64,000 bases of DNA, taken from assembly GCA_017609285.1 (NCBI GenBank), contig JAFCEE010000003.1, positions 75,529 through 139,528 of the forward strand, given 5' to 3'. The notes below the pieces were generated by a model that was not told where the DNA came from, did not search any database, and saw nothing but the letters and a program-made list of their open reading frames with translations. Shown here piece by piece: positions 13,355-38,014 of the stretch (its first letter is position 1; the number at the start of each line of letters is the position of its first letter). The stretch comes from Candidatus Pacearchaeota archaeon. GTDB lineage: Archaea > Nanobdellota > Nanobdellia > Pacearchaeales > GW2011-AR1. A program made the translations under genes and the position numbers.

Positions 13355-13355
13355 G

Positions 13356-14069: not shown

Positions 14070-14122
14070 AATATATTTTCTCTAACATATTTATTTTTAA
14101 ACCATAATTTTTACAAGTAAAT

Positions 14123-26840: not shown

Positions 26841-27746
26841 CTATATTTTGGAGCCATCTTCAAAAGTATCATAATGGCCTCGATGTAAATTTCTATTAAG
26901 TCTAAATAATCTTTTTTTAAACTTTTTATCCCTTAAGATCACATAAAGGTCTGTAAACTGTTGGCCTGTTAGGCTGCTTCCCCTCCTGTTAAATAAACCT
27001 GACATAGATGACACAGATGCAGATTCTAAAAACCTCAAAAAAGCCTCCTTGGTTATATAAGTTTCTTGAGAATTATGATGAATTAAATTTCTGAACCCAT
27101 TAAAGAGCGAGTCTCCAACAGATCTCGTCCTCTGGTCCCACACCGCCCTCACTAGATACAAAGCAGGATCTCTACCTAAATCTTTTTTGTCTCTTGGTCT
27201 TAAAGTGATAATTGCTCCATTAACAGAAGGTTCTGGATCAAATCTATCTGAAGGCACTTCCCTCTCATAGGATGTATGAAAATAAGCGTTTGTTAATAGA
27301 GGAAGTCTTCTGGATGTTATTTCCTCAAGCTCTCCTAATTTGTACATCTCTATTAATTTAGCCATATTATCTCCAATTAAAAGAGAGGCTAATTCAAACT
27401 TAGTGCCATACAACCTTTCAAATAAAGGCTCTGTGATATTAAAGGGAATATTTGAAACAATTTTATCAATTTTTCTTGGCCATGGGCAAGTAAGAGCATT
27501 TCCAACAACCACCTCTAAACTAGGATGTCGAGAAAATTGTCTTCTTAAATCATTCGCAAGATTTGGATCAGATTCAATTGCAATAACTCTCTTTGCCCTT
27601 CCGATTAGTTCCTTAGTTATAAAACCGTCTCCGGGCCCTATCTCCAAAACACAATCACTAGCATTAATTTCTGCCAAAGAGACCATGTATTGGCTTACTT
27701 GGGGATCTCTTAAAAAATGCTGATTTGTATAGTTTAATCTTGACAT
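26841..27746 (-). CDS. rRNA adenine N6-methyltransferase family protein (KsgA/Erm-like), compositionally atypical
   Basis: NQHFLRDPQV...VLEIGPGDGFITKEL...VIAIESDPNL...IVSNIPFNITEPL. The protein is Arg-rich and Lys-poor. Two hand-counted 60-nt lines gave 42% and 52% GC, against ~35% in rpoB. Confidence 0.75.
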   Translation of the reverse strand: MSRLNYTNQHFLRDPQVSQYMVSLAEINASDCVLEIGPGDGFITKELIGRAKRVIAIESDPNLANDLRRQFSRHPSLEVVVGNALTCPWPRKIDKIVSNIPFNITEPLFERLYGTKFELASLLIGDNMAKLIEMYKLGELEEITSRRLPLLTNAYFHTSYEREVPSDRFDPEPSVNGAIITLRPRDKKDLGRDPALYLVRAVWDQRTRSVGDSLFNGFRNLIHHNSQETYITKEAFLRFLESASVSSMSGLFNRRGSSLTGQQFTDLYVILRDKKFKKRLFRLNRNLHRGHYDTFEDGSKI

Positions 27747-27805
27747 GATAAACTATATTTTTTATGACTATTTAAATTCTATTATTATAAAGTGAAAAAC
27801 TAATT

Positions 27806-28774
27806 TTAAAACAAATAAGAGGGTTTTTTCGGAAGAAAATTTGAGTTTTTTTCCATACTGATAATTAGAGTATTCTCGATTGATTTAATATACTCTTGAA
27901 AATTACTTCTAATAGAATTCAAACAATCTCGCAATTCTTCGGGACTTCTTACTAAAATATCAAAATTAACGATATTTGAGATTCCGGGTGTTATAAAAGT
28001 TACACTTGAGCAATTTTTAAGATATTCAATAAATTTTTTGTCTTTATATTTTTTTGTTTCAACCAAAACACTGTTCCAAATAAAACCAAGCTTGCCAAAG
28101 TTGATAATTGGGCTAAATCCGATTATTACCTTCTTGTTAAGAAGATTTTTAATATGGTCTTTAGCGGTAGGAATACTTATTTTGACTTCTTCTGCGACAT
28201 CTAATATATTAATTCTACAATCTCTAGACAAAATCTTAAGTATTTTAAAATCAATTAATGAAATGTGATTCTTAGAACCTTCACCAGAGATAAAACAAGG
28301 GAAATCCTTTTTATCCTGGAAAATATTTTTTAAAGGAAGGCTGTAATTTTTAAGATTATGTAAAAGTAAACTTTCGATTATCCTTCCTTTTAGGATACAA
28401 AAAATTTTCTCTATAACTTGATTTAATTCAGAGAAATCTTCATAAAAAAGAGTAATAATCAAATCCCATTTGCCACAGCATCTCGCAAGCCACCCAATAT
28501 TTTTTATACGACATAGTTGATTAACTTTATTTTCAAGGTTTTGTTGGTCTAATTTTAGTTTTAAGAAAAAAGTTGAACATTCAAAGCCTATTTTGTGATA
28601 ATCTATGACTGCCCAAAATCCCATAAGAATTTTTTTCTTCATAAGGTTATGAATTCTTTTGCTAACTAATTGTTTTGATGTTCCTAATTTTTTAGCAATT
28701 CTAGAATAAGTTTGCCTAGCATTTAATATTAGCTCGTATAAAATATTTTTATCTATTAAATCCAGTTCGAACAT
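27806..28774 (-). CDS. tandem-duplicated Lrp/AsnC-type transcriptional regulator
   Basis: Two HTH modules, LDLIDKNILYELILNARQTYSRIAKKLGTSKQLVSKRIHNLMKKKIL and SLIDFKILKILSRDCRINILDVAEEVKISIPTAKDHIKNLLNKKVI. Each is followed by an effector-like domain. The gene is divergent from queD. Confidence 0.7.
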   Translation of the reverse strand: MFELDLIDKNILYELILNARQTYSRIAKKLGTSKQLVSKRIHNLMKKKILMGFWAVIDYHKIGFECSTFFLKLKLDQQNLENKVNQLCRIKNIGWLARCCGKWDLIITLFYEDFSELNQVIEKIFCILKGRIIESLLLHNLKNYSLPLKNIFQDKKDFPCFISGEGSKNHISLIDFKILKILSRDCRINILDVAEEVKISIPTAKDHIKNLLNKKVIIGFSPIINFGKLGFIWNSVLVETKKYKDKKFIEYLKNCSSVTFITPGISNIVNFDILVRSPEELRDCLNSIRSNFQEYIKSIENTLIISMEKNSNFLPKKPSYLF

Positions 28775-28796
28775 TAGTTTACAGAAGTAAATATCC

Positions 28797-28829
28797 TTTA
28801 TAAATTTTTTTTATTTGTCAATTTATAAA
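28797..28829. promoter_or_regulatory. bidirectional promoter with inverted TATA-like repeat between the regulator and queD
   Basis: TTTATAAATT (28797-28806) and its exact reverse complement AATTTATAAA (28820-28829) are 13 nt apart. The palindromic TTTATAAA cores lie ~23-30 nt from the regulator ATG (28774) and ~33-40 nt from the queD start. Confidence 0.5.
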
Positions 28830-28861
28830 ATGAAAAGTTTAATATAGAGTAATGAAGTTTA

Positions 28862-29227
28862 TTGAATATGATTATAGGCAGAGAATTTATATTTGACTCC
28901 GCCCATAAATTAGATTGGCATAAAGGTGACTGTAAAAATCTACATGGGCATACATATAAACTCCAAATTTTGATTAAAGGAAAAATTTCTTCTGACGGGA
29001 TTATTATAGATTTTGGAGATTTGGATAAAATTGTAAAGGGGGAGATACTATCAAAATTAGATCATCAACTGCTAAATGATATAATAGAAAACCCAACAGC
29101 AGAAAAGATCTCAATTTGGATTTGGGAAAAATTAAGTAAGAAAGTAAAAGGATTATATGAAGTTAGAGTATGGGAAACACCCAAATCTTTTGCTATTTAT
29201 AGAGGTGAAGACAATGAAGATAAATGA
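28862..29227 (+). CDS. queD: 6-carboxy-5,6,7,8-tetrahydropterin synthase (QueD/PTPS family)
   Basis: REFIFDSAHKLDWHKGDCKNLHGHTYKLQILIKG...LDHQLLND; 121 aa. TTG 28862 or ATG 28868 are both possible starts. Confidence 0.85.
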   Translation: MNMIIGREFIFDSAHKLDWHKGDCKNLHGHTYKLQILIKGKISSDGIIIDFGDLDKIVKGEILSKLDHQLLNDIIENPTAEKISIWIWEKLSKKVKGLYEVRVWETPKSFAIYRGEDNEDK

Positions 29228-29843
29228 GATATTTTTAAGTATTCAGGGAGAAGGGATATTAAGTGGATTGCCAACAATATTTGTCCGAACAACAGGATGC
29301 AATTTAAGGTGTGTTTGGTGTGACACGAAATTTTCTCGTAGTAAAGGGCAAGAAAAATCTGTCGGGGAGGTTCTCAAACAGATCAAAAGATTAAAGTTCA
29401 AAAGAGTCTGTCTAACAGGGGGTGAACCACTAATACAAGAAGAACTTCCTTTACTGATTGAACAGCTATTAAAAAGAAAGTATCAATTATCTATTGAAAC
29501 AAATGGTTCTAAAGACATTTCAATGTTGCCCAAAGAGGTAGTAATTTCTCTAGATATTAAATGCCCTTCTTCAAATGAGAGTCAGAATATTCTTTTTACG
29601 AATCTAAATTTTTTATCAAAAAAAGACCAATGTAAATTTGTAATTAGAAATAAAAAAGATTATGAATATGCAAAAAGAATCATTAGAGAGTATAATTTAA
29701 ACAAAAAAACTAACGTTATACTTACCCCTGTAGGAGGAATAAAGGCTGAAAAAATTGTTGAGAGAATTTTAAGAGATAAACTGGATGTAAGAATAGGCTT
29801 ACAGTTACATAAAATTATATGGGGGAGAAAGAGGGGTGTGTAA
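29214..29843 (+). CDS. queE: 7-carboxy-7-deazaguanine synthase (radical SAM QueE)
   Basis: MKINEIFLSIQGEGILSGLPTIFVRTTGCNLRCVWCDTKF...VCLTGGEPL. Overlaps queD by 14 nt. The ORF track extends to 29157. Confidence 0.85.
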   Translation: MKINEIFLSIQGEGILSGLPTIFVRTTGCNLRCVWCDTKFSRSKGQEKSVGEVLKQIKRLKFKRVCLTGGEPLIQEELPLLIEQLLKRKYQLSIETNGSKDISMLPKEVVISLDIKCPSSNESQNILFTNLNFLSKKDQCKFVIRNKKDYEYAKRIIREYNLNKKTNVILTPVGGIKAEKIVERILRDKLDVRIGLQLHKIIWGRKRGV

Positions 29844-29844
29844 A

Positions 29845-30636
29845 ATGAAAGATGTGCAAAAAATGAAAGATAATCGGAACTTACAAATTGATAGGGTGGG
29901 GATAAAAGATTTTAGATTTCCTATAAAGATAATGGGAAAAGTTAAGGAACAATCTACAATAGCAAAAATAAATATGTATGTAACCTTACCACATTATTTC
30001 AAAGGCACACACATGAGTAGATTTGTGGAAGTTTTAAGTAAATATCAAAATAAAAAAATAGATCTAAAAATTTTGGATAATGTTATTGAAGAAATAAATA
30101 AAAAATTGAAATCAAGATTTGCTGAGATAACTTTGGGATTCCCTTACTTTGTTGAAAAAATCTCGCCGATATCTAAGAAAAAAAGCCTTCTGTGTTATGA
30201 ATGTAAATTTATTTGTTCTGGAAATAAAAAAAAAGAAAGAGTATTGGAAGTTAATGTACCAGTAACTACACTATGTCCTTGTAGTAAGGAGATAAGTAGG
30301 AATAATGCACATAATCAAAGGGGATTTGTAAGAGTGAGAATAAGTTCGTCTGAGCCACTATTTATTGAAGATATAATCCGAATTGTAGAAGATGAAGCTA
30401 GCTGTGAAATATTTTCATTATTAAAAAGAGAAGATGAAAAATATGTTACCGAAAGAGCATACAATAATCCTAAATTCGTAGAAGATATGACCAGGGCCGT
30501 AGTAAAAAGATTAAAGGAGGATAAAAGAATTAATTGGTTTAGTGTAGGGACTGAAAATGAAGAGAGTATTCATAACCACAATGTCTTTGCATACATAGAA
30601 GGAGGTAAAAAAACAAAATGTATGTTCTTGGATTAA
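29845..30636 (+). CDS. folE2: GTP cyclohydrolase FolE2/MptA family (GCYH-IB type)
   Basis: DVQKMKDNRNLQIDRVGIKDFRFPIKI...YVTLPHYFKGTHMSRFVE...TLCPCSKEISRNNAHNQRG. The ATG lies 2 nt after the queE stop. Confidence 0.8.
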   Translation: MKDVQKMKDNRNLQIDRVGIKDFRFPIKIMGKVKEQSTIAKINMYVTLPHYFKGTHMSRFVEVLSKYQNKKIDLKILDNVIEEINKKLKSRFAEITLGFPYFVEKISPISKKKSLLCYECKFICSGNKKKERVLEVNVPVTTLCPCSKEISRNNAHNQRGFVRVRISSSEPLFIEDIIRIVEDEASCEIFSLLKREDEKYVTERAYNNPKFVEDMTRAVVKRLKEDKRINWFSVGTENEESIHNHNVFAYIEGGKKTKCMFLD

Positions 30637-32294
30637 ATGGGTTTGGTAAGAGAACACATGATGCTTCTGCATGTATTTTTAAGGATGGTATTTTAATAGC
30701 TTTTGCTGAAGAAGAAAGATTCACAAGGAAAAAACATGCATATGATTCTTTTCCATATAATTCAATTAAGTTTTGTCTTCAAGAAGCAAAAATAACTGAA
30801 AAAGAGATAGATATAGTAGCTCTATCCTGGGATTATAAGAAACTTTATCAGATAGCAAATAAACCTTTCTATAATAAAAAAGAAGTGATTGAATTATTAT
30901 TTCCAAAAAAATATTTTCAAGAAATAAATCCTAAAATCGTATTTGTTAACCACCATTTATCTCATGCATCTTCAGCCTATAGGTGTTCTGGGTTTAAAGA
31001 TGCTGCAATTCTTGTTGTAGATGGACAGGGAGAAGATGTCTCAACAACATTATGGAAAGCAAAAGATGGGAAAATTTCCTTGCTCAAAAAATTTCCTGTA
31101 AAAGATTCTATAGGGTATTTCTATGAAGCCGCAACCTCTTTTTTGGGCTTTAAAATTGACGATGCTGGAAAAACTATGGGATTGACATCATATGGAAGAT
31201 CAAACGAAAATTTTAGAGATATAATAAAACTATCTAGTGACGGGTACTCTTTTAAAATAAAACAAAAAAAAGGGGATGGGTTAGACAAACAGGAAGAAAT
31301 AATTGGAGAATGGATGAAATATTTTGAAAAAAAAATAGGAACAAGAAATAAACCTAAAACAAGTTTTGATTTTAAAAATGCAGGGATAAGACAGGATTTA
31401 GAATTTAATAAAAAATACAAAGATTTTTCTGCATCTGTTCAAGAAATAGTAAATAAGTTAATGGTCCATTTATCTAAAATTGCTTTGAAGTTAGCAGAAT
31501 CAGACAATTTATGTATTTCTGGGGGGGTTGGATTAAATTGTGTAGCTAATGGAAAAATATTAGAAAGTAAAATATGTAAAAAATTTTTTGTTCAGCCCAT
31601 ATGTAATGATGCGGGAACAAGTATTGGGGCAGCAATGCAAGTTCTTTCTGATATAGGGATAAATCCAGAATTTGAGATGAAACATGTCTACTTTGGTCCA
31701 GAGTTTAGTAATGATACAATCAAAAAAATTTTGGATGAAAGAAAATTAAGATATAATTTCATCCAAAATCCTGCTGAAGTTGCCGCAAAATTAATTGCCG
31801 AAGGTAAAATAGTTGGATGGTTCCAAGGAAAAATGGAGGGTGGGCCAAGGGCATTAGGAAATAGAAGTATTTTAGCAAATCCTACTATTCCTAAGATGAA
31901 AGATCTTGTGAATATTGTAAAATCTAGAGAGTTGTGGAGGCCTTTATGTCCTAGTATAATAGAAGATTCAAAAGAAGAATATCTAGAGAACCCCGCGAGA
32001 TCGAGATTTATGATTTTAAACTTTAAAGTCAGGAAGGATAAATTGGATAAGATTTCCTCAGTAGTGCATATAGATGGTACTGCCAGGGTTCAAACAATTG
32101 AAAAAGAGATAAACCCACTATATTGGGAATTAATAAATAAAGTAGGGGAGTTGTCGGGGGAGCCGGTTGTATTAAATACTTCTTTAAATGGGAAGGGGGA
32201 ACCAATTGCCTGCAGTCCGAAAGACGCCCTAAATAATTTTTTTTCTTCCGCAATGGATGTTTTGATAATAGGGAATTACATTATCGAAAAATGA
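30618..32294 (+). CDS. carbamoyltransferase (NodU/CmcH/TobZ family)
   Basis: MYVLGLNGFGKRTHDASACIFKDGILIAFAEEERFTRKKH...VNHHLSHASSAY...ISGGVGLNCVANG...GPRALGNRSILANP...VHIDGTARVQT. Overlaps folE2 by 19 nt. Confidence 0.85.
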   Translation: MYVLGLNGFGKRTHDASACIFKDGILIAFAEEERFTRKKHAYDSFPYNSIKFCLQEAKITEKEIDIVALSWDYKKLYQIANKPFYNKKEVIELLFPKKYFQEINPKIVFVNHHLSHASSAYRCSGFKDAAILVVDGQGEDVSTTLWKAKDGKISLLKKFPVKDSIGYFYEAATSFLGFKIDDAGKTMGLTSYGRSNENFRDIIKLSSDGYSFKIKQKKGDGLDKQEEIIGEWMKYFEKKIGTRNKPKTSFDFKNAGIRQDLEFNKKYKDFSASVQEIVNKLMVHLSKIALKLAESDNLCISGGVGLNCVANGKILESKICKKFFVQPICNDAGTSIGAAMQVLSDIGINPEFEMKHVYFGPEFSNDTIKKILDERKLRYNFIQNPAEVAAKLIAEGKIVGWFQGKMEGGPRALGNRSILANPTIPKMKDLVNIVKSRELWRPLCPSIIEDSKEEYLENPARSRFMILNFKVRKDKLDKISSVVHIDGTARVQTIEKEINPLYWELINKVGELSGEPVVLNTSLNGKGEPIACSPKDALNNFFSSAMDVLIIGNYIIEK

Positions 32295-33409
32295 ACCTTA
32301 AAAAAATAAAAGAAAAAAATAAAAAGGATGTCTTAGAATCGGAGAAGAAGAGAGAGGCCATAAATAGAGGTTTTCCATTAAGGATTAATATCTCAACAAC
32401 CAATAGATGTAACTTAAACTGTGTTATGTGTAAATACCACGGACAGACCAAGATTCGAAGAGAGGATCTTCCACTTAAAAAATTTAGAGAGATTGCAGAA
32501 GAATTTTTTCCATATTGTGAGGAAGTACATCCAGTAATCGATGGGGAGCCTTTTTTATCTCCTTATTTTTATGAAATTGTTAGTTTATCTAAGAAATACC
32601 AAGTGAGATTAAATATAGCTACAAATGGGATGTTATTAAACGATAAGATATCGAAATCTATATTGCCTATTCTAAGGGATATAAAATTTTCATTCGATGG
32701 TGCAAGAAAAAAAAGCTTAGAAAGTATTAGGAGGGGGGTTAAATATAAAATTCTAATAGAGAAAATAGAAAACTTTGTGAAGCTGAGAAATAAATATGTA
32801 AAAGAAAATAAAAAAGATTTAGTTTATCCCACTATAACTCTCCAAACTGTTTTAATGAACAGAAACATAAAAGAGCTCCCCCAGATAGTTAGATTAGGAA
32901 AGAAAATGGGGATCGATAGGGTTAAGGGTTTAAATCTGGTAGTAACTAATATAAGATGCCTCAAAGAATCTACTCTAATAAACAAAAAGCAAGCTAATAA
33001 ATATCTAAAAAAAGCAAAAGAATTGGCGAAGAGATATGGATTAATAGAGGATTATCCAAGTTTATTTGATTTGAAAATAAATCTCAAAGAAGGGGATAAG
33101 AATTTTAGAGAAAGATTAAATCCTCCACGATGTTGCGATTTTTTATGGAGGCAGATCTGTATTGAACCAAATGGGAATGTTAGAGCATGTTGTCATATAA
33201 ACAGCCCTGTGATGGGGAATATTTTTAAACAAAAAGTAAGTGAAATATGGAACAACCAAAAATACCAGGATATGAGGAAAAGATTAGATTCCGAAGAACC
33301 ATATATCTGTTGTAAACACTGTCCTATGATGTCAGAAAATGTGGTAGATTTTAAGGCATATATCAATTTACCTCAAAAACAAATAAGAAAATTTAAGTTT
33401 TTGATATAA
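32291..33409 (+). CDS. radical SAM enzyme with C-terminal SPASM/twitch-type Cys-rich domain
   Basis: INISTTNRCNLNCVMCKY (CxxxCxxC). The C-terminus has CCDFLWRQICIEPNGNVRACCH...PYICCKHCPM. ATGA overlap with the carbamoyltransferase gene. Confidence 0.8.
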   Translation: MNLKKIKEKNKKDVLESEKKREAINRGFPLRINISTTNRCNLNCVMCKYHGQTKIRREDLPLKKFREIAEEFFPYCEEVHPVIDGEPFLSPYFYEIVSLSKKYQVRLNIATNGMLLNDKISKSILPILRDIKFSFDGARKKSLESIRRGVKYKILIEKIENFVKLRNKYVKENKKDLVYPTITLQTVLMNRNIKELPQIVRLGKKMGIDRVKGLNLVVTNIRCLKESTLINKKQANKYLKKAKELAKRYGLIEDYPSLFDLKINLKEGDKNFRERLNPPRCCDFLWRQICIEPNGNVRACCHINSPVMGNIFKQKVSEIWNNQKYQDMRKRLDSEEPYICCKHCPMMSENVVDFKAYINLPQKQIRKFKFLI

Positions 33410-34046
33410 CATAAATTCCTTTCTTCCTTTTACATTTTGGACAAATAATGTTTATTATTTTCTTTTTTTTGAGATTATTTTTTTTCAAATATTTGTAAAA
33501 TTTTGATAAGTCATAGTTATAATTTTCATCTCTTAAATTTATTTCAAAAACTGCAATTCCTGTTGATTTCAAAATATAGTAAATATTTTTTAAAAAGGGG
33601 CCAAGATTTAGATAATAAATTGTTTCGTTACATAATATTATATCAAAAAAATGATTTTGGAATGGAGGTTTTTTATTAGCATCCCAAGTAATAAATTTTC
33701 CAAATCCTATGTTTTTTCTTGCTTCTTTTAGAGCATTCTTACTTATGTCTATAAAATAAAAATTTCCTCCGGATGAAAATTCTTGGATTATTTTTTTATC
33801 CTTTAATCCATTCCCCACACCAATATCCAAAACATTAAATTTTTCCATCCCGGTGTTTTCTTTTATAATTTTTTTAATCTCATTTATACTCTTGATCTCC
33901 CATCTATTTAGTTTTTTATGCATCCAGGGATCTTTTGATATCTTAAATAGTTTTTCAAAATCTTTTTTATGTTTTAGTGGCCCAGAAAATTTTTCAAAAT
34001 CTACTTTAGGGTTGTTGCACATACCACAGATATAATATTTATTCAT
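33393..34046 (-). CDS. class I SAM-dependent methyltransferase flanked by zinc-ribbon-like CxxC pairs
   Basis: FNVLDIGVGNGL (motif I), FDIILCNETIYY, N-terminal CGMC and C-terminal CPKCKRK. Its 3' end overlaps the convergent radical SAM gene by 17 nt. Confidence 0.7.
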   Translation of the reverse strand: MNKYYICGMCNNPKVDFEKFSGPLKHKKDFEKLFKISKDPWMHKKLNRWEIKSINEIKKIIKENTGMEKFNVLDIGVGNGLKDKKIIQEFSSGGNFYFIDISKNALKEARKNIGFGKFITWDANKKPPFQNHFFDIILCNETIYYLNLGPFLKNIYYILKSTGIAVFEINLRDENYNYDLSKFYKYLKKNNLKKKKIINIICPKCKRKKGIYVISKT

Positions 34047-35247
34047 GTTGTTTTTTATAAAATTCTAAGTTTTTTTCTATTCTTTGTTTAGAAATTTTTA
34101 TTTTATTTAATTGTTTCTTTCTATCTCTAATTTTTTTCTTAAAAAAAGTTTTTTTCTGATTATAAAAATCTAGAATTTCTTTTGGTAACATAGACTTATA
34201 TTTTGATAATGCTATTAAAAAATCAACTTTTCTTATATTATCCCATTCATTAAAGTTGGGGAGATAGTAGTCTCTTATTATTCTTCCTTCATCCTTTAGA
34301 GGCTCCTTTAAAAATTTATTATCTTCTACACCCGCAACTATCCCATTTATTCTACGATAATAGCAACTGGAACACTCGCCACAATTATTTCCGGTATAAC
34401 AGGTCATAGTGTCTTTAACGGAAATACCAAATTTCTTTTTCCATTTCTTTTCCCAGTAATATAAGATTTCAGATTTATTGAAATTATAAAAGGGAGTTGT
34501 TACTCTTATCTTCCTTCCTGTAAAAGAGGAGAAAAGATTTGATATATCCTTATAAAATTTCGGGCTTTTATCATTGTGCTGTTCAGTTATTTCTCCTCTG
34601 GCGGCACAAAGATATACATCTACCTTTTCTTTTTTTGTATTAGAAATAAAAAGTTCAGCAAAGGACAGCAACATAAAATTTCTCGCAGGAATTATCCCAA
34701 ATTTCCAAACATCCCATCCTTTGTCAATATATTTCTTTAAATTAATTTTAACTTTTAATATGTCTATATTAAGCTTTTTTTTGAGATTATTAATTACTGT
34801 CTTTTCGGCAGCTATATTTTTCTGACCAAAATCTATCCACATGGGTAAAACTTTGATTTTATTATCCAAACAGTAAAGCAAGGCAGCTACACTGTCTATC
34901 CCGCCACTGAGCATTAAAATAACATCAAAATCAGAATCCTGTAAGATTTTCTTACCCAATTGTCTTTTTAAAGGAGAGTATTTTATCCTAATATCAAAAT
35001 TTTTTGAAACAGCTTTCTTAAAATTTAAATTAAGATCAGCAAATTCTTTAATATTGATTAGCTTAGATATGTCTTTATCATAAACATTAATGTAATTTTC
35101 AAATTTATATCCGGCTAAAACTAAGAGGATAGAAGTTTTTGTAATAGAATCTAGTTTATTTACTTTATAATTAGTTTCTATTCCTATTTTTTTTGTGTTA
35201 AAAACTTCCTTTCCAACTTCTCCAAGAGTATCATTTATCTTATACAT
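34039..35247 (-). CDS. QueC-family PP-loop ATPase (7-cyano-7-deazaguanine synthase-like) with N- and C-terminal extensions
   Basis: Core VILMLSGGIDSVAALLYC...WIDFGQKN...IIPARNFMLLSFA...CYTGNNCGECSSCYYRR matches the QueC order SGGxDS / YGQ / PARN / C..C..C..R. It is 402 aa, against ~220-230 aa as I recall for typical QueC. Confidence 0.7.
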   Translation of the reverse strand: MYKINDTLGEVGKEVFNTKKIGIETNYKVNKLDSITKTSILLVLAGYKFENYINVYDKDISKLINIKEFADLNLNFKKAVSKNFDIRIKYSPLKRQLGKKILQDSDFDVILMLSGGIDSVAALLYCLDNKIKVLPMWIDFGQKNIAAEKTVINNLKKKLNIDILKVKINLKKYIDKGWDVWKFGIIPARNFMLLSFAELFISNTKKEKVDVYLCAARGEITEQHNDKSPKFYKDISNLFSSFTGRKIRVTTPFYNFNKSEILYYWEKKWKKKFGISVKDTMTCYTGNNCGECSSCYYRRINGIVAGVEDNKFLKEPLKDEGRIIRDYYLPNFNEWDNIRKVDFLIALSKYKSMLPKEILDFYNQKKTFFKKKIRDRKKQLNKIKISKQRIEKNLEFYKKQHE

Positions 35248-35812
35248 TTTCTAATATTTCTCTAACTTGCTTAACTATGTCTTGTTTATTACCATTATTA
35301 TAGATGATATATTTTTTAACCCTAGTTCCTGTCTTTCTAAAGTTTTCAAAAATTAAATTAAACTTATCAAAAGTTATATTTTTAATCGAGTCAATATTAT
35401 TTTTATACTCTTTACTTATTTTTTTGCTCTTTTTTATTCTGTTTAGTAAAATTTTTGTATCTGTATCTATTAGTATAAAAATAAATTTAATATCTTTTGA
35501 AACCATATTTTTTATCATATTTGGGGTTATTGCTTCTTCATAATTTTTAGAAAAATCTCTTCTAATGCCATGTAGAATGTCCTCCCCCATATCTTCTGAA
35601 GGGACAGCATAATGTAAGTCTAAAACAATCTTGTGGAATTTATATGCTTCGTTTTTAATAAATTTTCCGGTTTCAAGTTCGGTTTCAGGCCAAGGTTTAT
35701 TAATTTTATTTATTATATTATAAAGTTTATATTTCTTTATGCTTTTGATATTTCTTAATATTAAACTCTTTCCTACACCCCTAACTCCCCCCAAAAAGAT
35801 TATTGTGCTCAT
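35240..35812 (-). CDS. P-loop NTPase / small-molecule kinase-like protein
   Basis: MSTIIFLGGVRGVGKSLILRNI (Walker A at the extreme N-terminus); 190 aa, the size of a nucleoside- or sugar-kinase-like fold. Overlaps its neighbours by 8 and 4 nt. Confidence 0.55.
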   Translation of the reverse strand: MSTIIFLGGVRGVGKSLILRNIKSIKKYKLYNIINKINKPWPETELETGKFIKNEAYKFHKIVLDLHYAVPSEDMGEDILHGIRRDFSKNYEEAITPNMIKNMVSKDIKFIFILIDTDTKILLNRIKKSKKISKEYKNNIDSIKNITFDKFNLIFENFRKTGTRVKKYIIYNNGNKQDIVKQVREILENV

Positions 35813-36591
35813 TTTTGTTTTATTGATTTATAACCTAAGAAGAAGAATAAATACCAAATGCTAAGATATATCCCTACAATTAATCCTTTCCTTCTGGTTC
35901 CTTCAATCAAGTATTTTAAAAATCCTCTCAAAAAATTAGGGTTTTTTTCTTTTTTTTGGAATAGGTGTTTTTGTTTTCTACCAGAACCATAGTTAAATGC
36001 ACTCCTCAGATCATCTTTAATATTTAGAGGTGCATGGATAATTTTTGCATTGGGGAGATACCCCCACGAAATCTTCTCCCTTTCAATTCTATCAGCCATT
36101 TCTGCATCGGCTGCATGGTCTATTTCTGTATTGAACAACCCTATTTTTTCAAAAACTTTTTTTTTGAAGATAACTCCAGGGATATATAGATTTGGGAAAT
36201 CAGAAGTTGTAAACTCTCTTGCTTTAGCTATTATTTTAGAAATTAATGAGTCAAAAGAAAAGATGACTTTTCCTTTTACTATATCATATTTTTTTGTTTT
36301 TTTATATAATTTAAACAAAGTATGTTTTTCAAAGATGCAATCTGCGTCCATAAAAAAAATAAGATTATACGAAGAATTCCTTATCCCTAAATTATAGAAT
36401 CTCGAAAAAGAAAATTTTTTCATTTTAAGAATTTTTATTTTTCTTTTTTTTAATTCACTTTCTATTTTCTTATCATATTCCCCATTTAAAACAACTATAA
36501 TTTCTAAGTTAGCATCTATAGAATCTATACAATCGAGTACCCTAAAGTCATCACAAACGGGAATTATTACACTTATAGGGAGTCTGACCAT
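35809..36591 (-). CDS. family 2 glycosyltransferase
   Basis: ISVIIPVCDD...IVVLNG...LIFFMDADCIFE (DxD-type) and a C-terminal hydrophobic helix. Confidence 0.75.
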   Translation of the reverse strand: MVRLPISVIIPVCDDFRVLDCIDSIDANLEIIVVLNGEYDKKIESELKKRKIKILKMKKFSFSRFYNLGIRNSSYNLIFFMDADCIFEKHTLFKLYKKTKKYDIVKGKVIFSFDSLISKIIAKAREFTTSDFPNLYIPGVIFKKKVFEKIGLFNTEIDHAADAEMADRIEREKISWGYLPNAKIIHAPLNIKDDLRSAFNYGSGRKQKHLFQKKEKNPNFLRGFLKYLIEGTRRKGLIVGIYLSIWYLFFFLGYKSIKQK

Positions 36592-37190
36592 TTTTTTATT
36601 TTAAATGCTTCGGCATAATTGGTATTACCCCCCATGATTCCTCTAAAAGAGTTTAAAGACTTAACTGCTTTGTCATACCTTCTATGATTTAGTTGAGACT
36701 TATAGATCCTCAACAAATCTATTTTCTTATTTATAAAATTTGAAATGTCTTCGTAATAATTTACTCCGTACATCGGGGTATGAACTTCATATAATAAGAT
36801 ACCGAGAGGATTTAATTTTCCCTTTGAGTTAATTTTAGACATCCAAATTGCTTCTCTAGCTATCTCATAAGTTTTTTTATGGTCCCTATCTCCATCATTT
36901 TCATGGGGAAGGAAGATTATTGAGGGGTTGATCTCTCTTATTATTTTTTTTAATTTGTTTAAATTTTCAGAATTAAACTCTAAAGGTTCTTTTAGTTTAA
37001 GAAAAAAAATTTCCTTGATTCCTGCTTTAATTCTTACTTTTTCGGCTTCCTTTTCTCTAACAGAATCTCCTAAATAAGTCATGAAAACAACATAGACCTC
37101 ATTCCCTTTTTCTATATTCTTCAATAAAGTTCCTCCACAACCGATTATCTCATCATCCGGATGGGGAGCAATAACTAATATTTTTCTCAT
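36573..37190 (-). CDS. PIG-L/LmbE-family N-acetylglucosaminyl deacetylase
   Basis: ILVIAPHPDDEIIGCGGTLLK and HENDGDRDHKKT (zinc-ligand motifs). Confidence 0.8.
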   Translation of the reverse strand: MRKILVIAPHPDDEIIGCGGTLLKNIEKGNEVYVVFMTYLGDSVREKEAEKVRIKAGIKEIFFLKLKEPLEFNSENLNKLKKIIREINPSIIFLPHENDGDRDHKKTYEIAREAIWMSKINSKGKLNPLGILLYEVHTPMYGVNYYEDISNFINKKIDLLRIYKSQLNHRRYDKAVKSLNSFRGIMGGNTNYAEAFKIKKWSDSL

Positions 37191-37258
37191 AATTCTTATA
37201 ATCAGGAGGGATATAAAAGGTTACCTGTTTAATTTAGTTACAAAAGATAAAAATACTA

Positions 37259-38014
37259 TTAAAAAATTGTATTTCGTAAATGTTCTCTTAGCCTTATCAA
37301 AAATTTTCCAGTAATTCTCTTAACAGACTTTTCTAGAATCTTCTCGTTTAGATTCATATTAGCTAAAATCTCTCTTGACATTCTTTTAGTTTTTCCTTCT
37401 TCAACTAAAGAATAAATTATTGCATTTTTGATTTTTCCATTTTTACATAATATTCTTTTTAGTACGTTATCTACCATATTTAGTTTTTTTTTCTTTGTAA
37501 GTTTAATAATCCATGAATTTACTTTTGGTGGAGGCATAAAACTTTTTTTCTTGACTTCACAAATATAATTTATATTAAAAAATAAATTTGCGATTATCCC
37601 GATTTTTCCTTCTCTCTTCTCTAGAATATTCTTAAATTTCTCTCCTGCAATAACTACAATTTCTTCAATGTTATCTCTTATTGCTTTTAGAACTAAATCC
37701 CCTGAAATAAAATAAGGAATATTTGAAACAATTTTATTATACCCTCGCCAGTCGCTTTTTAAAGCATCCGAGTACATAATTTTTAAATTGTTATATTTTT
37801 TGGATATCCTGTCTAAATCTTTTTTAAATTTTTTATCTATCTCAAAAGCTAAGACTGTTTTAGCTTTTTTAGTTAACTCTTGTGTGAGAATTCCTTTTCC
37901 TGCCCCAATTTCTATTATTTTATCTTTATTAGATATTTCTGCTTCTTTAATTTCTCTTTCAATTATTTTTTTATCTATTAAAAAGTGCTGGCCCTTATTA
38001 AAATCTATATCCAT
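37259..38014 (-). CDS. ksgA: 16S rRNA dimethyladenosine transferase (KsgA/Dim1), host-like composition
   Basis: GQHFLIDKKIIEREI...IIEIGAGKGILTQEL...VLAFEIDKKF...IVSNIPYFISGDLV. Lys-rich and AT-rich like the core genes. Confidence 0.8.
   Translation of the reverse strand: MDIDFNKGQHFLIDKKIIEREIKEAEISNKDKIIEIGAGKGILTQELTKKAKTVLAFEIDKKFKKDLDRISKKYNNLKIMYSDALKSDWRGYNKIVSNIPYFISGDLVLKAIRDNIEEIVVIAGEKFKNILEKREGKIGIIANLFFNINYICEVKKKSFMPPPKVNSWIIKLTKKKKLNMVDNVLKRILCKNGKIKNAIIYSLVEEGKTKRMSREILANMNLNEKILEKSVKRITGKFLIRLREHLRNTIF

What the first reader, a model, noticed from the sequence alone, without database searches (positions are those of the whole stretch)
28862..37190. Convergent 10-gene cluster joining a full preQ0-type 7-deazapurine pathway to aminosugar-style tailoring enzymes: candidate undescribed archaeal system
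Plus-strand operon: QueD, QueE, FolE2-type GTP cyclohydrolase, NodU/TobZ-type carbamoyltransferase, radical-SAM/SPASM enzyme. Its junctions are a 14-nt overlap, a 1-nt gap, a 19-nt overlap and a 4-nt overlap. Minus-strand operon: PIG-L deacetylase, GT2 glycosyltransferase, P-loop kinase, extended QueC-like ATPase, SAM methyltransferase, with junction overlaps of 19, 4, 8 and 8 nt. The two operons converge and their 3' ends overlap by 17 nt (33393-33409), leaving no intergenic space across 8.3 kb. FolE2, QueD, QueE and QueC are the established GTP-to-preQ0 route. In archaea that route normally feeds archaeosine in tRNA and needs none of the other six enzymes. A GT paired with a PIG-L deacetylase is the classic way to install a glucosamine unit via GlcNAc (mycothiol, bacillithiol, GPI, 2-deoxystreptamine aminoglycosides). 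Carbamoyltransferase, radical-SAM/SPASM dehydrogenase-type enzymes and kinases are also typical aminoglycoside or nucleoside-antibiotic tailoring functions. The QueC homolog is embedded inside the tailoring operon, which argues that the association is functional. My inference is a glycosylated, carbamoylated and/or methylated 7-deazapurine small molecule, or a hypermodified base. This is conceptually similar to actinomycete pyrrolopyrimidine products (toyocamycin/sangivamycin and glycosylated preQ0 derivatives such as dapiramicin/huimycin, cited from memory), but in a reduced archaeon, where such chemistry has not to my knowledge been described.
Basis: partly seen in the sequence, partly recalled or inferred. 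Interest (0 to 1): 0.85.

Follow-up and report, generated by a model that had tools for sequence, protein, structure and literature searches.

The report
Deazaguanine–aminosugar gene cluster of ultra-small microbes
A tightly packed gene cluster in a tiny symbiotic archaeon, also found in ultra-small CPR bacteria, probably joins a modified guanine base to a carbamoylated amino-sugar; a dedicated extra ribosomal-RNA methylase travels with it in the archaeal copies, which hints at an undescribed antibiotic-like molecule.

Summary
The ten ORFs, their junction overlaps and their domain assignments are as described.

The deazapurine genes and the sugar-tailoring genes form one conserved unit. I found the same core in about 15 independent loci at 35-60% identity: QueC-like enzyme, TobZ-like carbamoyltransferase, GT2 and PIG-L deacetylase. 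These loci come from DPANN archaea, CPR/Patescibacteria bacteria and one CPR (pro)phage.

Three corrections apply:
- The QueC homolog is not a canonical preQ0 synthase. It belongs to a rare family (46 representatives among 1.84 billion) with QatC-like N- and C-terminal extensions and a Cap9-like core. The canonical His and Tyr are lost, but the Asp that reads the deazaguanine edge is invariant. It is best read as a ligase joining 7-carboxy-7-deazaguanine (CDG) to an amine.
- The unit is larger than reported (26841-38014). It includes a regulator and a rare KsgA/Erm-family paralog that is bound to the cluster in the archaeal loci.
- It is not specific to archaea.

Non-orthologous replacements support a CDG–aminosugar small molecule: FolE2 versus FolE, de novo genes versus the Vut_1 transporter, deacetylase versus oxidase plus aminotransferase, and P-loop versus APH kinase. 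No TGT or DpdA was found in any neighbourhood examined. The product and its target remain inferred.

The parts
26841..27746 (-). RrnaAD_L: rare KsgA/Dim1/Erm-family rRNA adenine methyltransferase paralog (301 aa) bound to the cluster; candidate self-protection gene
   Evidence: Pfam RrnaAD E 1.4e-32. It scores Erm 134.9 and KsgA 132.7 bits, both below their cut-offs. The GxGxG and NIPF motifs are read from the sequence. Only 8 homologs reach E<=1e-20. All three homolog contexts lie divergent from a QueD operon.
27806..28774 (-). Regulator with two AsnC/Lrp-type HTH domains (322 aa), transcribed divergently from the QueD operon
   Evidence: HTH_24 and HTH_AsnC-type, two stretches each. A 43%-identical ortholog sits in the same position in L001.
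28775..28861 (.). 87-nt AT-rich divergent intergenic region; presumed promoter region for both operons
   Evidence: Read from the sequence. No promoter test was possible because the tool does not cover archaeal promoters.
28862..29227 (+). QueD (6-carboxytetrahydropterin synthase)
   Evidence: PTPS E 1.4e-33. TIGR03367 95.6 bits, above the 89.25 cut-off.
29157..29843 (+). QueE (7-carboxy-7-deazaguanine synthase, radical SAM); probable true start at 29214
   Evidence: TIGR04349 228.7 bits, with the alignment starting at residue 20. Radical_SAM E 3.6e-17.
29836..30636 (+). FolE2-type GTP cyclohydrolase I; probable start at 29845
   Evidence: PF02649 297.8 bits. NF010200 275.5 bits, above the 215 cut-off. 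Replaced by FolE (PF01227) in L001 and the CPR loci.
30618..32294 (+). TobZ-like O-carbamoyltransferase (core gene)
   Evidence: Full-length match to TobZ (3ver_A), E 2e-118, 399.6 bits. Present in 10 of 12 mapped loci.
32291..33409 (+). Radical-SAM/SPASM enzyme (accessory, seen only in this window)
   Evidence: Radical_SAM plus SPASM. Only weak PDB matches, to the GDGT synthase and to the auxiliary-cluster domain of BtrN. No homolog in any related locus.
33393..34046 (-). Class-I SAM methyltransferase (accessory)
   Evidence: Methyltransf_11, _25 and _31. A methyltransferase of a different size also occurs in L009/L010.
34039..35247 (-). Extended QueC-family PP-loop ATPase (402 aa); inferred CDG:amine ligase (core, signature gene)
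   Evidence: PF06508 86.9 bits, but TIGR00364 66.5 against a cut-off of 150.3. Family motifs from the alignment. Best PDB sequence match is Cap9. AF2 model pLDDT 90.8. The top Foldseek match is QatC over the full length. PADLOC Cap9-type 'QueC' model 94.8 bits. 46 representatives at E<=1e-30 among 1.84e9.
35240..35812 (-). P-loop kinase-like protein (190 aa)
   Evidence: AAA_18 weak match and no PDB sequence match. Orthologs in L009, L099 and L183, and fused to GT2 in L008. Replaced by APH-family kinases in CPR loci.
35809..36591 (-). GT2 glycosyltransferase (core)
   Evidence: Glycos_transf_2 E 1.3e-11. The DAD motif is read from the sequence. Present in 10 of 12 mapped loci.
36573..37190 (-). 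PIG-L/LmbE-family de-N-acetylase (core)
   Evidence: PIG-L E 1.2e-22. Best NCBIfam match is BshB1, 80.4 bits, below its cut-off. Present in 10 of 12 mapped loci.
37259..38014 (-). RrnaAD_S: housekeeping-type KsgA/Dim1 (251 aa), 68 nt upstream of the minus-strand operon and on the same strand
   Evidence: RrnaAD E 1.4e-39 and KsgA 154.2 bits. 176 homologs at E<=1e-20, named Pacearchaeota or Nanoarchaeota. Also adjacent to the cluster in L001, L179 and the P0006 locus.

Best explanation
This is a conserved, horizontally mobile biosynthetic gene cluster for a small molecule in which 7-carboxy-7-deazaguanine (CDG) is amide-linked to an O-carbamoylated amino-sugar glycoside.

**Proposed steps**
1. 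FolE2, QueD and QueE convert GTP to CDG. This follows from family membership at or near equivalog level.
2. GT2 transfers GlcNAc from a nucleotide sugar to an unidentified acceptor, which may be phosphorylated by the P-loop kinase. PIG-L then removes the acetyl group and exposes a free amine. This step is inferred.
3. The extended QueC-family enzyme adenylates the CDG carboxylate through its PP-loop. It then uses the sugar amine as nucleophile in place of ammonia. Cap9 and QatC do the same with protein N-termini, and RoyL does it with amino acids. This step is inferred.
4. The TobZ-like enzyme O-carbamoylates a sugar hydroxyl. This step is inferred from 400-bit full-length similarity to TobZ.
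5. Lineage-specific tailoring follows. In this window it is a radical-SAM/SPASM enzyme and a methyltransferase. In CPR bacteria it is AdoMet decarboxylase with a BpsA-like aminopropyltransferase, APH kinases and an MA-type peptidase.

**Likely target.** The rare KsgA/Erm-family paralog RrnaAD_L travels with the cluster in archaea. It is most simply explained as a self-protecting rRNA methyltransferase, which would make the product a ribosome-directed agent. This is the weakest step. The double AsnC-type regulator controls the divergent operons.
For: **Conserved co-localisation**
- The core (QueC-like, carbamoyltransferase, GT2, PIG-L) recurs in L001, L004, L006, L008, L009, L011, L012, L015, L016, L099-L102, L179 and L183. 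Identity is 35-60% and gene orders differ.
- Titled genome records are Amesbacteria, Woesebacteria, Patescibacteria and Nanoarchaeota.

**Non-orthologous replacements that keep the same function**
- FolE2 (window, L179, L181, L183) versus FolE/PF01227 (L001 and CPR loci).
- De novo FolE, QueD and QueE versus the Vut_1/YhhQ-type 7-deazaguanine transporter plus a small QueF-like T-fold protein (L009, L099, L102, P0006 locus).
- GT2 plus PIG-L versus GT-A, FAD oxidoreductase and DegT aminotransferase in L014. Both routes end in an amino-sugar.
- P-loop kinase versus APH kinases.

**The QueC-like enzyme is kept even where precursors are salvaged, and it is non-canonical**
- TIGR00364 scores 66.5 against a cut-off of 150.3.
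- YxQxHxxE is changed to an invariant FGQxN(x)3E, and YPDC to (H/N)(N/T)DK with the Asp invariant. This is judged against the signature and mutagenesis data in PMC13329287 and the Cap9 Y115/D117 roles in PMC13279940.
- The best PDB sequence match is Cap9. The best fold match is QatC over the full length, followed by Cap9 with TM 0.81. The PADLOC Cap9-type model scores 94.8 bits.

**Precedents for QueC homologs as CDG:amine ligases**
- Cap9 and QatC and RoyL.

**Fusions**
- GT2 fused to the P-loop kinase in L008.
- QueC-like fused to His_Phos_1 in P0041, and a weak GT2 fused to QueC-like in P0032 and P0034.

**Other support**
- TobZ match of 399.6 bits.
- No TGT or DpdA in the listed genes of any neighbourhood or among the large ORFs of the window.
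- RrnaAD_L has only 8 homologs, against 176 for the housekeeping RrnaAD_S. All three independent homolog contexts sit beside the QueD operon.
- An MFS transporter abuts the cluster in L183.
Against: - No product has been observed and every chemical step after CDG is inferred.
- The GT2 acceptor is unknown.
- No exporter is conserved across loci.
- The QatC-like extensions bind a protein partner in QatBC, so a macromolecular substrate is not excluded.
- One locus (L179) uses two short QueC paralogs in place of the extended one.
- In CPR loci I could not show that the linked RrnaAD gene is a second copy rather than the housekeeping ksgA. Archaeal and bacterial cluster-linked RrnaADs do not form one clade by BLAST scores.
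- RrnaAD_L could methylate something other than rRNA.
- The QueC-like enzyme might still make preQ0 for tRNA, because the rest of the genome could not be searched for a canonical queC or arcTGT.
Confidence: 0.5

Rival explanations
1. Nucleic-acid hypermodification. The cluster builds a glycosylated, carbamoylated 7-deazaguanine in tRNA, rRNA or (pro)phage DNA. The base would be inserted by a TGT or DpdA encoded elsewhere. The QueC-like enzyme, GT2, PIG-L and carbamoyltransferase would act on the polymer, and the RrnaAD paralog would act on the same RNA.
For: - RrnaAD-family genes are linked to the cluster in most loci.
- The archaeal loci lie beside translation genes (EF-2, EF-1a, S10).
- One locus sits between portal and major-head genes of a (pro)phage, and phages are known to place 7-deazaguanines in DNA (PMC13329287).
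- The QatC-like extensions suggest a large substrate.
- From my own knowledge, GT2-family QTGAL glycosylates queuosine in vertebrate tRNA.
Against: - No TGT or DpdA appears in the +/-10 kb gene lists of the loci examined or among the large ORFs of the 64-kb window.
- The IMG/VR scan found only canonical viral QueC (22-30% identity) and no member of the extended family.
- The carbamoyltransferase is closest to TobZ, which acts on a small molecule.
- The replacement of GT2 and PIG-L by an FAD oxidoreductase and a DegT aminotransferase in L014 is typical small-molecule sugar chemistry.
- DNA-insertion enzymes are usually co-located with their deazaguanine genes (bioRxiv 10.64898/2026.04.15.718813).
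Confidence: 0.17
2. Protein deazaguanylation, as a defence or regulatory system. The QueC-like enzyme would conjugate CDG to the N-terminus of a protein, as Cap9 and QatC do, with the sugar enzymes acting on a separate or secondary substrate.
For: The closest sequence and fold relatives are Cap9 and QatC. QatC also has N- and C-terminal extensions, which it uses in part to hold QatB.
Against: - No CD-NTase, Cap10, QatA, QatB or QatD equivalents are present, and PADLOC finds no partner.
- No conserved protein of unknown function recurs across loci to serve as substrate.
- None of the cluster proteins begins with Met-Gly.
- The NCBIfam QatC model scores only 22 bits against a cut-off of 280.
- The base-reading Asp is retained, unlike in QatC.
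Confidence: 0.08
3. A non-antibiotic metabolite made by mycothiol- or bacillithiol-like logic. The same CDG–GlcN conjugate would serve as a cofactor, a compatible solute or a cell-surface or host-interaction molecule. RrnaAD_L would then be a passenger, or would use or modify the compound.
For: - The enzyme order (kinase, GT, phosphatase, PIG-L deacetylase, ATP-dependent ligase onto the GlcN amine) mirrors the MshA/A2/B/C and BshA/B/C pathways as I know them.
- The best NCBIfam match for PIG-L is BshB1.
- There is a fusion of the QueC-like enzyme to a histidine phosphatase.
- No conserved exporter was found.
Against: - The distribution is rare and patchy, and the cluster is associated with mobile elements. 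That pattern is unusual for a core cofactor.
- The presence of TobZ-like and APH-like genes, together with a duplicated rRNA methyltransferase, is the classical signature of a ribosome-directed antibiotic cluster. This last point is from established knowledge.
Confidence: 0.17
4. Coincidental neighbours: a supply operon for archaeosine or queuosine precursors sitting next to an unrelated glycan operon.
For: FolE2, QueD and QueE are ordinary members of the preQ0 route. GT2 and PIG-L are common in glycan pathways.
Against: - The association recurs in about 15 loci across two domains with shuffled gene order.
- The QueC-like gene sits among the sugar genes.
- Fusions link a GT2 (strongly to the P-loop kinase in L008; only at threshold level to the QueC-like enzyme) and a phosphatase (to the QueC-like enzyme).
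- Salvage-type loci keep the QueC-like gene.
Confidence: 0.03

Closest known systems
RoyL-type peptidyl-7-deazapurine clusters (roseomycin A, Streptomyces)
   Same: Both have CDG-supply genes without a TGT. Both have a divergent QueC homolog proposed or shown to form an amide between AMP-activated CDG and an amine instead of making preQ0 (bioRxiv 10.64898/2026.04.15.718813).
   Different: - RoyL uses amino acids and keeps the Y41/H45/E48 motif. Here that motif is FGQxN(x)3E.
- The enzyme here carries QatC-like N- and C-terminal domains.
- The partners are sugar enzymes (GT2, PIG-L, TobZ-like) rather than ATP-grasp and TauD enzymes.
- The hosts are DPANN and CPR organisms, not actinomycetes.
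- A direct sequence comparison with RoyL was not possible because its sequence was not at hand.
Cap9 (type IV CBASS) and QatC (QatABCD), the protein deazaguanylation ligases
   Same: These are the closest relatives by sequence (Cap9 9nto_B, 46 bits; PADLOC Cap9-type model, 94.8 bits) and by fold (QatC 9y01_B over the full length; Cap9 TM 0.81). They share the PP-loop, the RN motif and the Zn-Cys cluster. The F/YxQ(x)5E spacing matches Cap9.
   Different: No CD-NTase, Cap10, QatA, QatB or QatD is present. The base-stacking Tyr is lost, unlike in Cap9. The base-reading Asp is kept, unlike in QatC. The genomic partners are sugar-tailoring enzymes.
Huimycin and dapiramicin clusters (glycosylated preQ0, actinomycetes)
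   Same: Both combine 7-deazaguanine genes with a glycosyltransferase that uses GlcNAc and with a methyltransferase. A carbamoyltransferase gene lies next to the hui cluster (PMC7439116).
   Different: - The hui cluster has a canonical QueC/ToyM (72% identical to ToyM) and a GT of the PF13439 family.
- It has no deacetylase.
- Its neighbouring carbamoyltransferase is dispensable.
- It has no linked rRNA methyltransferase.
Aminoglycoside pathways (tobramycin, kanamycin, neomycin, butirosin)
   Same: - TobZ-like carbamoyltransferase (399.6 bits).
- GlcNAc transfer followed by LmbE/PIG-L deacetylation.
- An FAD oxidoreductase with a DegT aminotransferase in variant L014.
- APH-family kinases.
- A weak BtrN-like auxiliary-cluster domain.
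- The pathway-level parallels are from established knowledge.
   Different: There are no 2-deoxy-scyllo-inosose synthase or cyclitol genes. The GT belongs to GT2, not GT4. A deazaguanine carboxylate and a PP-loop ligase are present. The linked resistance-like methyltransferase is of the KsgA/Erm family, not the Arm or Kam families.
Mycothiol and bacillithiol biosynthesis (MshA/A2/B/C; BshA/B/C)
   Same: The logic matches: a GT adds GlcNAc, an optional phosphatase acts, a PIG-L-family deacetylase exposes the amine, and an ATP-dependent ligase acylates the GlcN amine. The best NCBIfam match for the deacetylase is BshB1.
   Different: The acyl donor would be CDG, not cysteine. The ligase is a QueC-family PP-loop enzyme. 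The BshB1 score of 80.4 is far below the 182.5 cut-off, and no thiol chemistry is implied.

Membership tests
[quoted passage not shown] | SGGxDS PP-loop | tested here: met
   LSGGIDS. S114, G116, D118 and S119 are invariant and G115 is nearly invariant in the family alignment.
[quoted passage not shown] | YxQxHxxE motif (Y35 essential in E. coli; PMC13329287) | tested here: not met
   The family has an invariant F140-G-Q142-x-N144-xxx-E148. His is replaced by Asn and the Glu is shifted by one residue.
[quoted passage not shown] | VPxRN motif (R99 essential) | tested here: met
   IPARN. P187, R189 and N190 are invariant.
[quoted passage not shown] | YPDC motif (Y131 needs an aromatic ring) | tested here: not met
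   The window has H-N-D-K and the family has (H/N)(N/T)DK. Only the Asp (D226) is invariant.
[quoted passage not shown] | C(x)8CxxCxxC zinc site | tested here: inconclusive
   Four invariant Cys are present, but the spacing is C(x)5CGxCxxC.
[quoted passage not shown] | Curated equivalog score and single-domain length of about 220-230 aa | tested here: not met
   TIGR00364 scores 66.5 against a cut-off of 150.3. The protein is 402 aa, with structured extensions of about 100 aa at each end.
[quoted passage not shown] | Converts CDG, NH3 and 2 ATP to preQ0 | not testable with these tools
   Needs an enzyme assay or complementation of a queC deletion strain.
QatC (QatABCD defence) | QueC core with an N-terminal alpha/beta extension and a C-terminal helical extension | tested here: inconclusive
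   The top Foldseek match is 9y01_B, E 8.9e-9 over 417 columns, but TM is only 0.49/0.46 and rmsd 10.4. The secondary-structure layout is compatible.
QatC (QatABCD defence) | Neighbours QatA, QatB and QatD; curated QatC model | tested here: not met
   NF041925 scores 22.2 against a cut-off of 280. PADLOC finds no Qat partners. None appear in any neighbourhood.
Cap9 (type IV CBASS) | Cap9-type QueC profile and F/YxQ(x)5E variant motif | tested here: met
   PADLOC PDLC00911 scores 94.8 bits. The best PDB sequence match is 9nto_B. The motif spacing matches.
Cap9 (type IV CBASS) | Adjacent CD-NTase and Cap10; minimal length of about 185 aa; Tyr that stacks on the base | tested here: not met
   No CD-NTase or TGT-like gene is present. 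The protein is 402 aa. The Tyr is replaced by His or Asn.
RoyL-type deazapurine amide-bond synthetases | QueC homolog in a CDG-supply cluster without TGT, ligating CDG to an amine | tested here: inconclusive
   The context criterion is met. The Y41/H45/E48 residues described for RoyL are not conserved here.
7-deazapurine secondary-metabolite gene cluster (toyocamycin, huimycin or roseomycin kind) | GTP cyclohydrolase I, QueD and QueE co-located with tailoring enzymes and lacking TGT or DpdA | tested here: met
   The criterion is as stated in bioRxiv 10.64898/2026.04.15.718813.
7-deazapurine secondary-metabolite gene cluster (toyocamycin, huimycin or roseomycin kind) | A detected deazapurine metabolite | not testable with these tools
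   Needs heterologous expression and LC-MS.
Dpd / phage 7-deazaguanine DNA modification, and the archaeosine tRNA pathway | DpdA, or arcTGT with ArcS, QueF-L or GAT-QueC, linked to the que genes | tested here: not met
   None appears in the window's large ORFs or in the gene lists of related loci. The rest of the genome could not be examined.
KsgA/Dim1 (RsmA) or Erm rRNA adenine dimethyltransferases (for RrnaAD_L) | RrnaAD fold with the SAM motif and the N(I/L)P(Y/F) catalytic motif | tested here: met
   PF00398 113.3 bits. EIGPGDG and NIPF are read from the sequence. The best PDB matches are archaeal KsgA/Dim1 proteins.
KsgA/Dim1 (RsmA) or Erm rRNA adenine dimethyltransferases (for RrnaAD_L) | Equivalog-level assignment to KsgA (16S A1518/A1519) or Erm (23S A2058) | tested here: not met
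   KsgA scores 132.7 against a cut-off of 171 and Erm 134.9 against 212, so the target site is undetermined.
TobZ/NodU O-carbamoyltransferases | Full-length two-domain architecture (Kae1-like N-terminal domain and YrdC-like C-terminal domain) | tested here: met
   Carbam_trans_N and Carbam_trans_C. The TobZ match covers residues 1-558 against 7-572, E 2e-118.

The most novel reading that the evidence does not exclude
Ultra-small episymbionts of both domains (Pacearchaeota-like DPANN archaea and CPR/Patescibacteria bacteria), and at least one of their (pro)phages, share a mobile pathway for a previously unseen class of ribosome-directed agent. This would be a carbamoylated aminosugar acylated by 7-carboxy-7-deazaguanine. 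It would be made by a new branch of the QueC family acting as a CDG:aminosugar ligase. The producer would be protected by a dedicated KsgA/Erm-like rRNA methyltransferase paralog. That would be the first antibiotic-type cluster family characteristic of these organisms, and a fourth use of the QueC scaffold.
Probability: 0.25. Interest if true: 0.85.

Novelty: new variant of a known kind. Interest (0 to 1): 0.72.

Why it matters
- **Unexpected hosts.** DPANN archaea and CPR bacteria have tiny genomes and are generally thought to carry little specialised metabolism. A 10-13-gene pathway that is conserved, horizontally shared and costly suggests it matters for their symbiotic or competitive life.
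- **A new role for the QueC scaffold.** It would extend the recently recognised repurposing of QueC (preQ0 synthesis, protein deazaguanylation by Cap9 and QatC, amino-acid ligation by RoyL) to sugar amines.
- **A testable target hypothesis.** It pairs aminoglycoside-like logic with a deazaguanine warhead. The cluster-bound duplicate of a housekeeping rRNA methyltransferase points to the small ribosomal subunit or its maturation as the target.
- **Not in the searched literature.** I found no description of this cluster in the open-access literature searched. Large-scale mining of 7-deazapurine clusters has centred on Streptomyces.

Tried and rejected
- **Exact look-up of the window's QueC-like protein.** This found nothing, so the source contig could not be extended. 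The genome was also absent from the species-representative scan. I therefore could not search the rest of the genome for arcTGT, ArcS or a canonical queC.
- **Viral origin.** The IMG/VR scan returned only canonical viral QueC at 22-30% identity. I rejected a typical phage system, although one CPR (pro)phage does carry the cluster.
- **Known defence system.** PADLOC found no partner proteins, so I rejected this.
- **Cross-domain clade of cluster-linked RrnaADs.** BLAST scores show separate archaeal-long, archaeal-short and CPR groups. Co-transfer of the methyltransferase across domains is not supported.
- **ABC-F ribosome-protection gene.** An ABC protein lies next to L006, but it is not conserved in other loci, so I dropped it.
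- **Membrane-anchored GT2 acting on a lipid carrier.** The C-terminal hydrophobic helix is conserved, but in the L008 fusion it lies in the middle of the protein. It is probably not a transmembrane segment, and I left the point open.
- **Middle domain of the 817-835-aa fusions.** It is not the P-loop kinase and not the window-type GT2.
- **PDB sequence searches.** Those for the P-loop protein and GT2 gave nothing useful.
- **Literature searches.** Searches for the gene combination and for CPR or DPANN deazaguanine clusters found no description.

Full report
**1. The observation**

The 19-nt, 4-nt, 8-nt, 8-nt, 4-nt and 19-nt junction overlaps and the 17-nt convergent overlap at 33393-33409 follow directly from those coordinates. 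The '14-nt overlap' and '1-nt gap' require internal starts at 29214 for QueE and 29845 for FolE2. These are plausible because the QueE profile alignment begins at residue 20.

Profile searches confirm every assignment:
- QueD: TIGR03367 above its cut-off.
- QueE: 228.7 bits.
- FolE2: NF010200, 275.5 bits against a cut-off of 215.
- Carbam_trans_N and Carbam_trans_C, Radical_SAM with SPASM, a class-I methyltransferase, QueC (PF06508, 86.9 bits), a weak P-loop match, GT2 and PIG-L.

**2. Context and true extent**

The cluster lies between EF-2 (24577-26745) and EF-1alpha (38372-39652), downstream of RpoB, RpoA, a NusA-like KH protein, S12 and S7. It sits inside the conserved archaeal translation and transcription gene string.

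The unit is larger than reported:
- A regulator with two AsnC-type HTH domains (27806-28774) is transcribed divergently from QueD. It is followed by a 301-aa RrnaAD-family gene (26841-27746), which I call RrnaAD_L.
- A second RrnaAD-family gene of 251 aa (37259-38014), RrnaAD_S, lies 68 nt upstream of PIG-L on the same strand.

GC content is 0.29 for the island, against 0.33 and 0.31 for the flanks. No TGT-like protein occurs among the large ORFs of the 64-kb window.

Named homologs of RrnaAD_S are from Pacearchaeota and Nanoarchaeota. The host is therefore most likely a Pacearchaeota-like DPANN archaeon. This is an inference.

**3. Is the association conserved?**

Yes. The QueC-like protein defines a small family of 20 word-index hits. 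An exhaustive profile search found only 46 representatives at E<=1e-30 among 1.84 billion, of which about 24 are full length.

I examined neighbourhoods of its members and mapped them by tblastn and clustering. The QueC-like enzyme, the TobZ-like carbamoyltransferase, GT2 and PIG-L occur together in L001, L004, L006, L008, L009, L011, L012, L015, L016, L099-L102, L179 and L183. Gene orders vary and identity is 35-60%.

Titled genomes are Candidatus Amesbacteria, Candidatus Woesebacteria, a Patescibacteria group bacterium and a Nanoarchaeota archaeon. Bacterial context genes such as EF-P, Lgt, LspA, GroES/EL and RecG confirm that about half of the loci I recovered are bacterial.

**4. Informative variation**

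| Function | One solution | Alternative solution |
|---|---|---|
| GTP cyclohydrolase | FolE2 (window, L179, L181, L183) | FolE/PF01227 (L001, CPR loci) |
| Deazaguanine supply | De novo FolE, QueD, QueE | Vut_1 (YhhQ-type transporter) plus a 108-aa QueF-like T-fold protein that keeps the catalytic-type Cys but lacks a recognisable NADPH motif (L009, L010, L099, L102, P0006 locus; L016 has Vut_1) |
| Amino-sugar formation | GT2 with PIG-L (and the carbamoyltransferase) | GT-A 'Nucleotid_trans', FAD oxidoreductase and DegT/EryC1 aminotransferase (L014, Woesebacteria) |
| Kinase | P-loop protein (window, L009, L099, L183; fused to GT2 in L008) | APH-family kinases (L004, L011, L012, L014) |

The QueC-like gene is retained in the salvage-type loci.

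Most CPR loci add AdoMet decarboxylase with a BpsA_C-type aminopropyltransferase. Four add an MA-type peptidase.

Fusions exist between the QueC-like enzyme and His_Phos_1 (167 bits). A GT2 match that is only at threshold level (24 and 23 bits) is also fused to the QueC-like enzyme.

Every variant keeps the same functional set: a deazaguanine carboxylate supply, a QueC-family ATP-dependent enzyme, a glycosyl transfer, generation of a sugar amine, and a phosphotransfer.

**5. The QueC homolog**

It fails the canonical signature defined and mutagenised in PMC13329287:
- SGGxDS and (V/I)PxRN are kept.
- YxQxHxxE becomes an invariant FGQxN(x)3E.
- YPDC becomes (H/N)(N/T)DK.
- The zinc-site spacing is C(x)5CGxCxxC.
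- It scores 66.5 against the TIGR00364 cut-off of 150.3.

In Cap9 the Tyr of this motif stacks on the base and the Asp reads the Watson-Crick edge. QatC replaces both with Thr (PMC13279940). Here the Asp (D226) is invariant and the Tyr is lost. Recognition of a 2-amino-4-oxo deazapurine is therefore plausible, but in a remodelled pocket.

Its closest relatives are the ligases:
- The best PDB sequence match is Cap9 (46 bits), against 37 and 24 bits for two QueC structures.
- The PADLOC Cap9-type model gives 94.8 bits.
- A confident AF2 model (pLDDT 90.8, pTM 0.91) matches QatC best and over its full length (E 8.9e-9, TM about 0.48). Cap9 follows with a target-normalised TM of 0.81, then QueC.

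Cap9 and QatC ligate CDG to protein N-termini. RoyL ligates CDG to amino acids in roseomycin biosynthesis. The simplest reading is a CDG:amine ligase whose amine comes from the deacetylated, or transaminated, sugar.

One locus (L179) uses two short QueC paralogs instead. Both lack the canonical His.

**6. The other core enzymes**

- The carbamoyltransferase aligns end to end with TobZ, the tobramycin 6''-O-carbamoyltransferase (E 2e-118). It aligns much less well with the novobiocin and geldanamycin enzymes.
- The best NCBIfam match for PIG-L is the bacillithiol deacetylase BshB1, below its cut-off.
- The order kinase, GT, phosphatase, PIG-L deacetylase and ATP-dependent acylation of the GlcN amine mirrors mycothiol and bacillithiol biosynthesis. 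It also mirrors the paromamine step of aminoglycosides. Both parallels are from established knowledge.
- The radical-SAM/SPASM gene has no counterpart in any other locus, and the window's methyltransferase has none either. A differently sized methyltransferase occurs in L009/L010. Both are accessory.

**7. The rRNA methyltransferase paralog**

RrnaAD_S has 176 homologs at E<=1e-20, all KsgA/Dim1-like proteins of related archaea. It is the housekeeping enzyme.

RrnaAD_L has only 8 homologs. Starting from those homologs, independently of the QueC-like gene, all three contexts examined place it divergently next to a QueD-QueE-FolE2-carbamoyltransferase operon (L179/L180, L181, L182). L183 also has an RrnaAD_L ortholog inside the cluster.

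RrnaAD_L keeps the SAM and NIPF motifs. It reaches neither the KsgA nor the Erm equivalog threshold.

A duplicated housekeeping rRNA methyltransferase embedded in a biosynthetic cluster is the classical mark of self-resistance in antibiotic producers. Kinases of the APH or P-loop type are another such mark. Both statements rest on established knowledge. I therefore infer a ribosome-directed product, but this is the least secure step.

In CPR loci a 296-351-aa RrnaAD gene is also linked. I could not show that it is a second copy. The archaeal and bacterial linked copies do not form one clade by BLAST score.

**8. Mobility**

- In L004 (a 297-kb Patescibacteria contig) the cluster sits between a portal/adaptor gene and a major head protein gene (phrog_1328, E 2.4e-32).
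- In L014 an rve integrase and an HTH gene abut it.
- In L001 toxin-antitoxin and Fic genes lie nearby.
- In three archaeal loci it lies beside EF-1alpha or S10 (window, L179, L183).
- IMG/VR holds no member of the extended family.

**9. Rivals**

- **Nucleic-acid hypermodification.** It is kept alive by the RrnaAD link, the translation-gene neighbourhood, the phage locus and the QatC-like extensions. It is weakened because no TGT or DpdA was found in any neighbourhood examined and because the partner enzymes have small-molecule character.
- **Protein deazaguanylation or defence.** It lacks all partner proteins and any conserved substrate candidate.
- **A non-antibiotic CDG-GlcN metabolite.** This fits the chemistry equally well and differs only in purpose.
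- **Coincidental adjacency.** This is excluded by the conserved synteny.

**10. Novelty and verdict**

Gene clusters for 7-deazapurine natural products are known, including toyocamycin, huimycin and roseomycin. QueC homologs acting as amide ligases are also known.

I found no description of this combination: an extended QueC-family enzyme, a TobZ-like carbamoyltransferase, GT2 with PIG-L, and a dedicated KsgA/Erm paralog, shared by DPANN archaea and CPR bacteria. The literature searched includes the 2026 QueC-family survey and the 2026 genome-mining preprint.

I rate it a new variant of a known kind, of high interest. The product, the acceptor and the target are all unproven.

Noticed in passing
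window 24577-26745 and 38372-39652; L179 12994-13302; L183 11861-13547: The island is inserted between EF-2 and EF-1alpha of the conserved archaeal rpoB-rpoA-S12-S7-EF2-EF1a gene string. Related archaeal loci also lie beside EF-1alpha or S10, so this location seems ancestral for the archaeal version.
   Followed up: partly
L004 2099-3988 and 18127-19296 (Patescibacteria MAG JBGSJG010000008.1): The whole cluster, about 12 kb including RrnaAD, BpsA-like and AdoMetDC genes, sits between a portal/adaptor gene and a major head protein gene. It is cargo inside a (pro)phage head module of a CPR bacterium.
   Followed up: partly
L014 11849-17146 and 19346-20230 (Woesebacteria MAG): A variant cluster in which the carbamoyltransferase, GT2 and PIG-L are replaced by an FAD oxidoreductase, a DegT aminotransferase, a GT-A transferase and two APH kinases. 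An rve integrase and an HTH gene lie next to it.
   Followed up: partly
L009 9981-10307; L102 8840-9163; P0006 locus: Salvage-type loci carry a 108-aa QueF-like T-fold protein with a conserved Cys but no recognisable NADPH motif, next to a Vut_1/YhhQ-type transporter. Its role is unexplained; it might convert preQ0 back to an amide or acid, or form an amidine.
   Followed up: partly
P0041; P0032, P0033, P0034; P0018 (L184 35-2065): Multidomain members of the QueC-like family exist: QueC-like with a C-terminal histidine phosphatase, and 676-835-aa proteins with a long N-terminal extension (GT2 match only at threshold level) before the QueC-like part. The roughly 270-aa middle region has no match.
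   Followed up: partly
L179 4305-5679: This archaeal locus has two short QueC-family paralogs (248 and 214 aa) in tandem instead of one extended protein. Both lack the canonical His of YxQxHxxE.
   Followed up: partly
L016 340-1405 and 1512-3058; L183 5441-6014: The QueC-like and carbamoyltransferase genes (L016) and the P-loop gene (L183) appear split into two ORFs. This could be pseudogenisation or assembly frameshifts.
   Followed up: no
window 19262-22858: RNA polymerase subunit A is a single 1198-aa ORF carrying Rpb1 domains 1-5, whereas most archaea split it into A' and A''. RpoB is also a single 1085-aa ORF (16012-19269; identity inferred from position and size, not checked by profile search).
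   Followed up: no
window 15582-15687: A 106-nt tRNA is found by Rfam (59.4 bits) but not by ARAGORN. It probably contains an intron, which is consistent with an archaeal host.
   Followed up: no
window 11115-15148: A nucleotide-metabolism block: anaerobic ribonucleotide reductase NrdD with an ATP-cone, an NrdG-like radical-SAM activase (13356-14069), and a fusion of a P-loop kinase (AAA_18) with a dCMP/cytidine deaminase (14123-15148).
   Followed up: no
L001 17342-20083: HicAB, a PIN-domain protein and a Fic protein lie within a few kb downstream of the cluster in this archaeal contig, suggesting an island-like region.
   Followed up: no
L183 2753-3931: An MFS_1 transporter lies immediately upstream of PIG-L in this archaeal locus. 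It is the only candidate exporter seen next to any version of the cluster.
   Followed up: no
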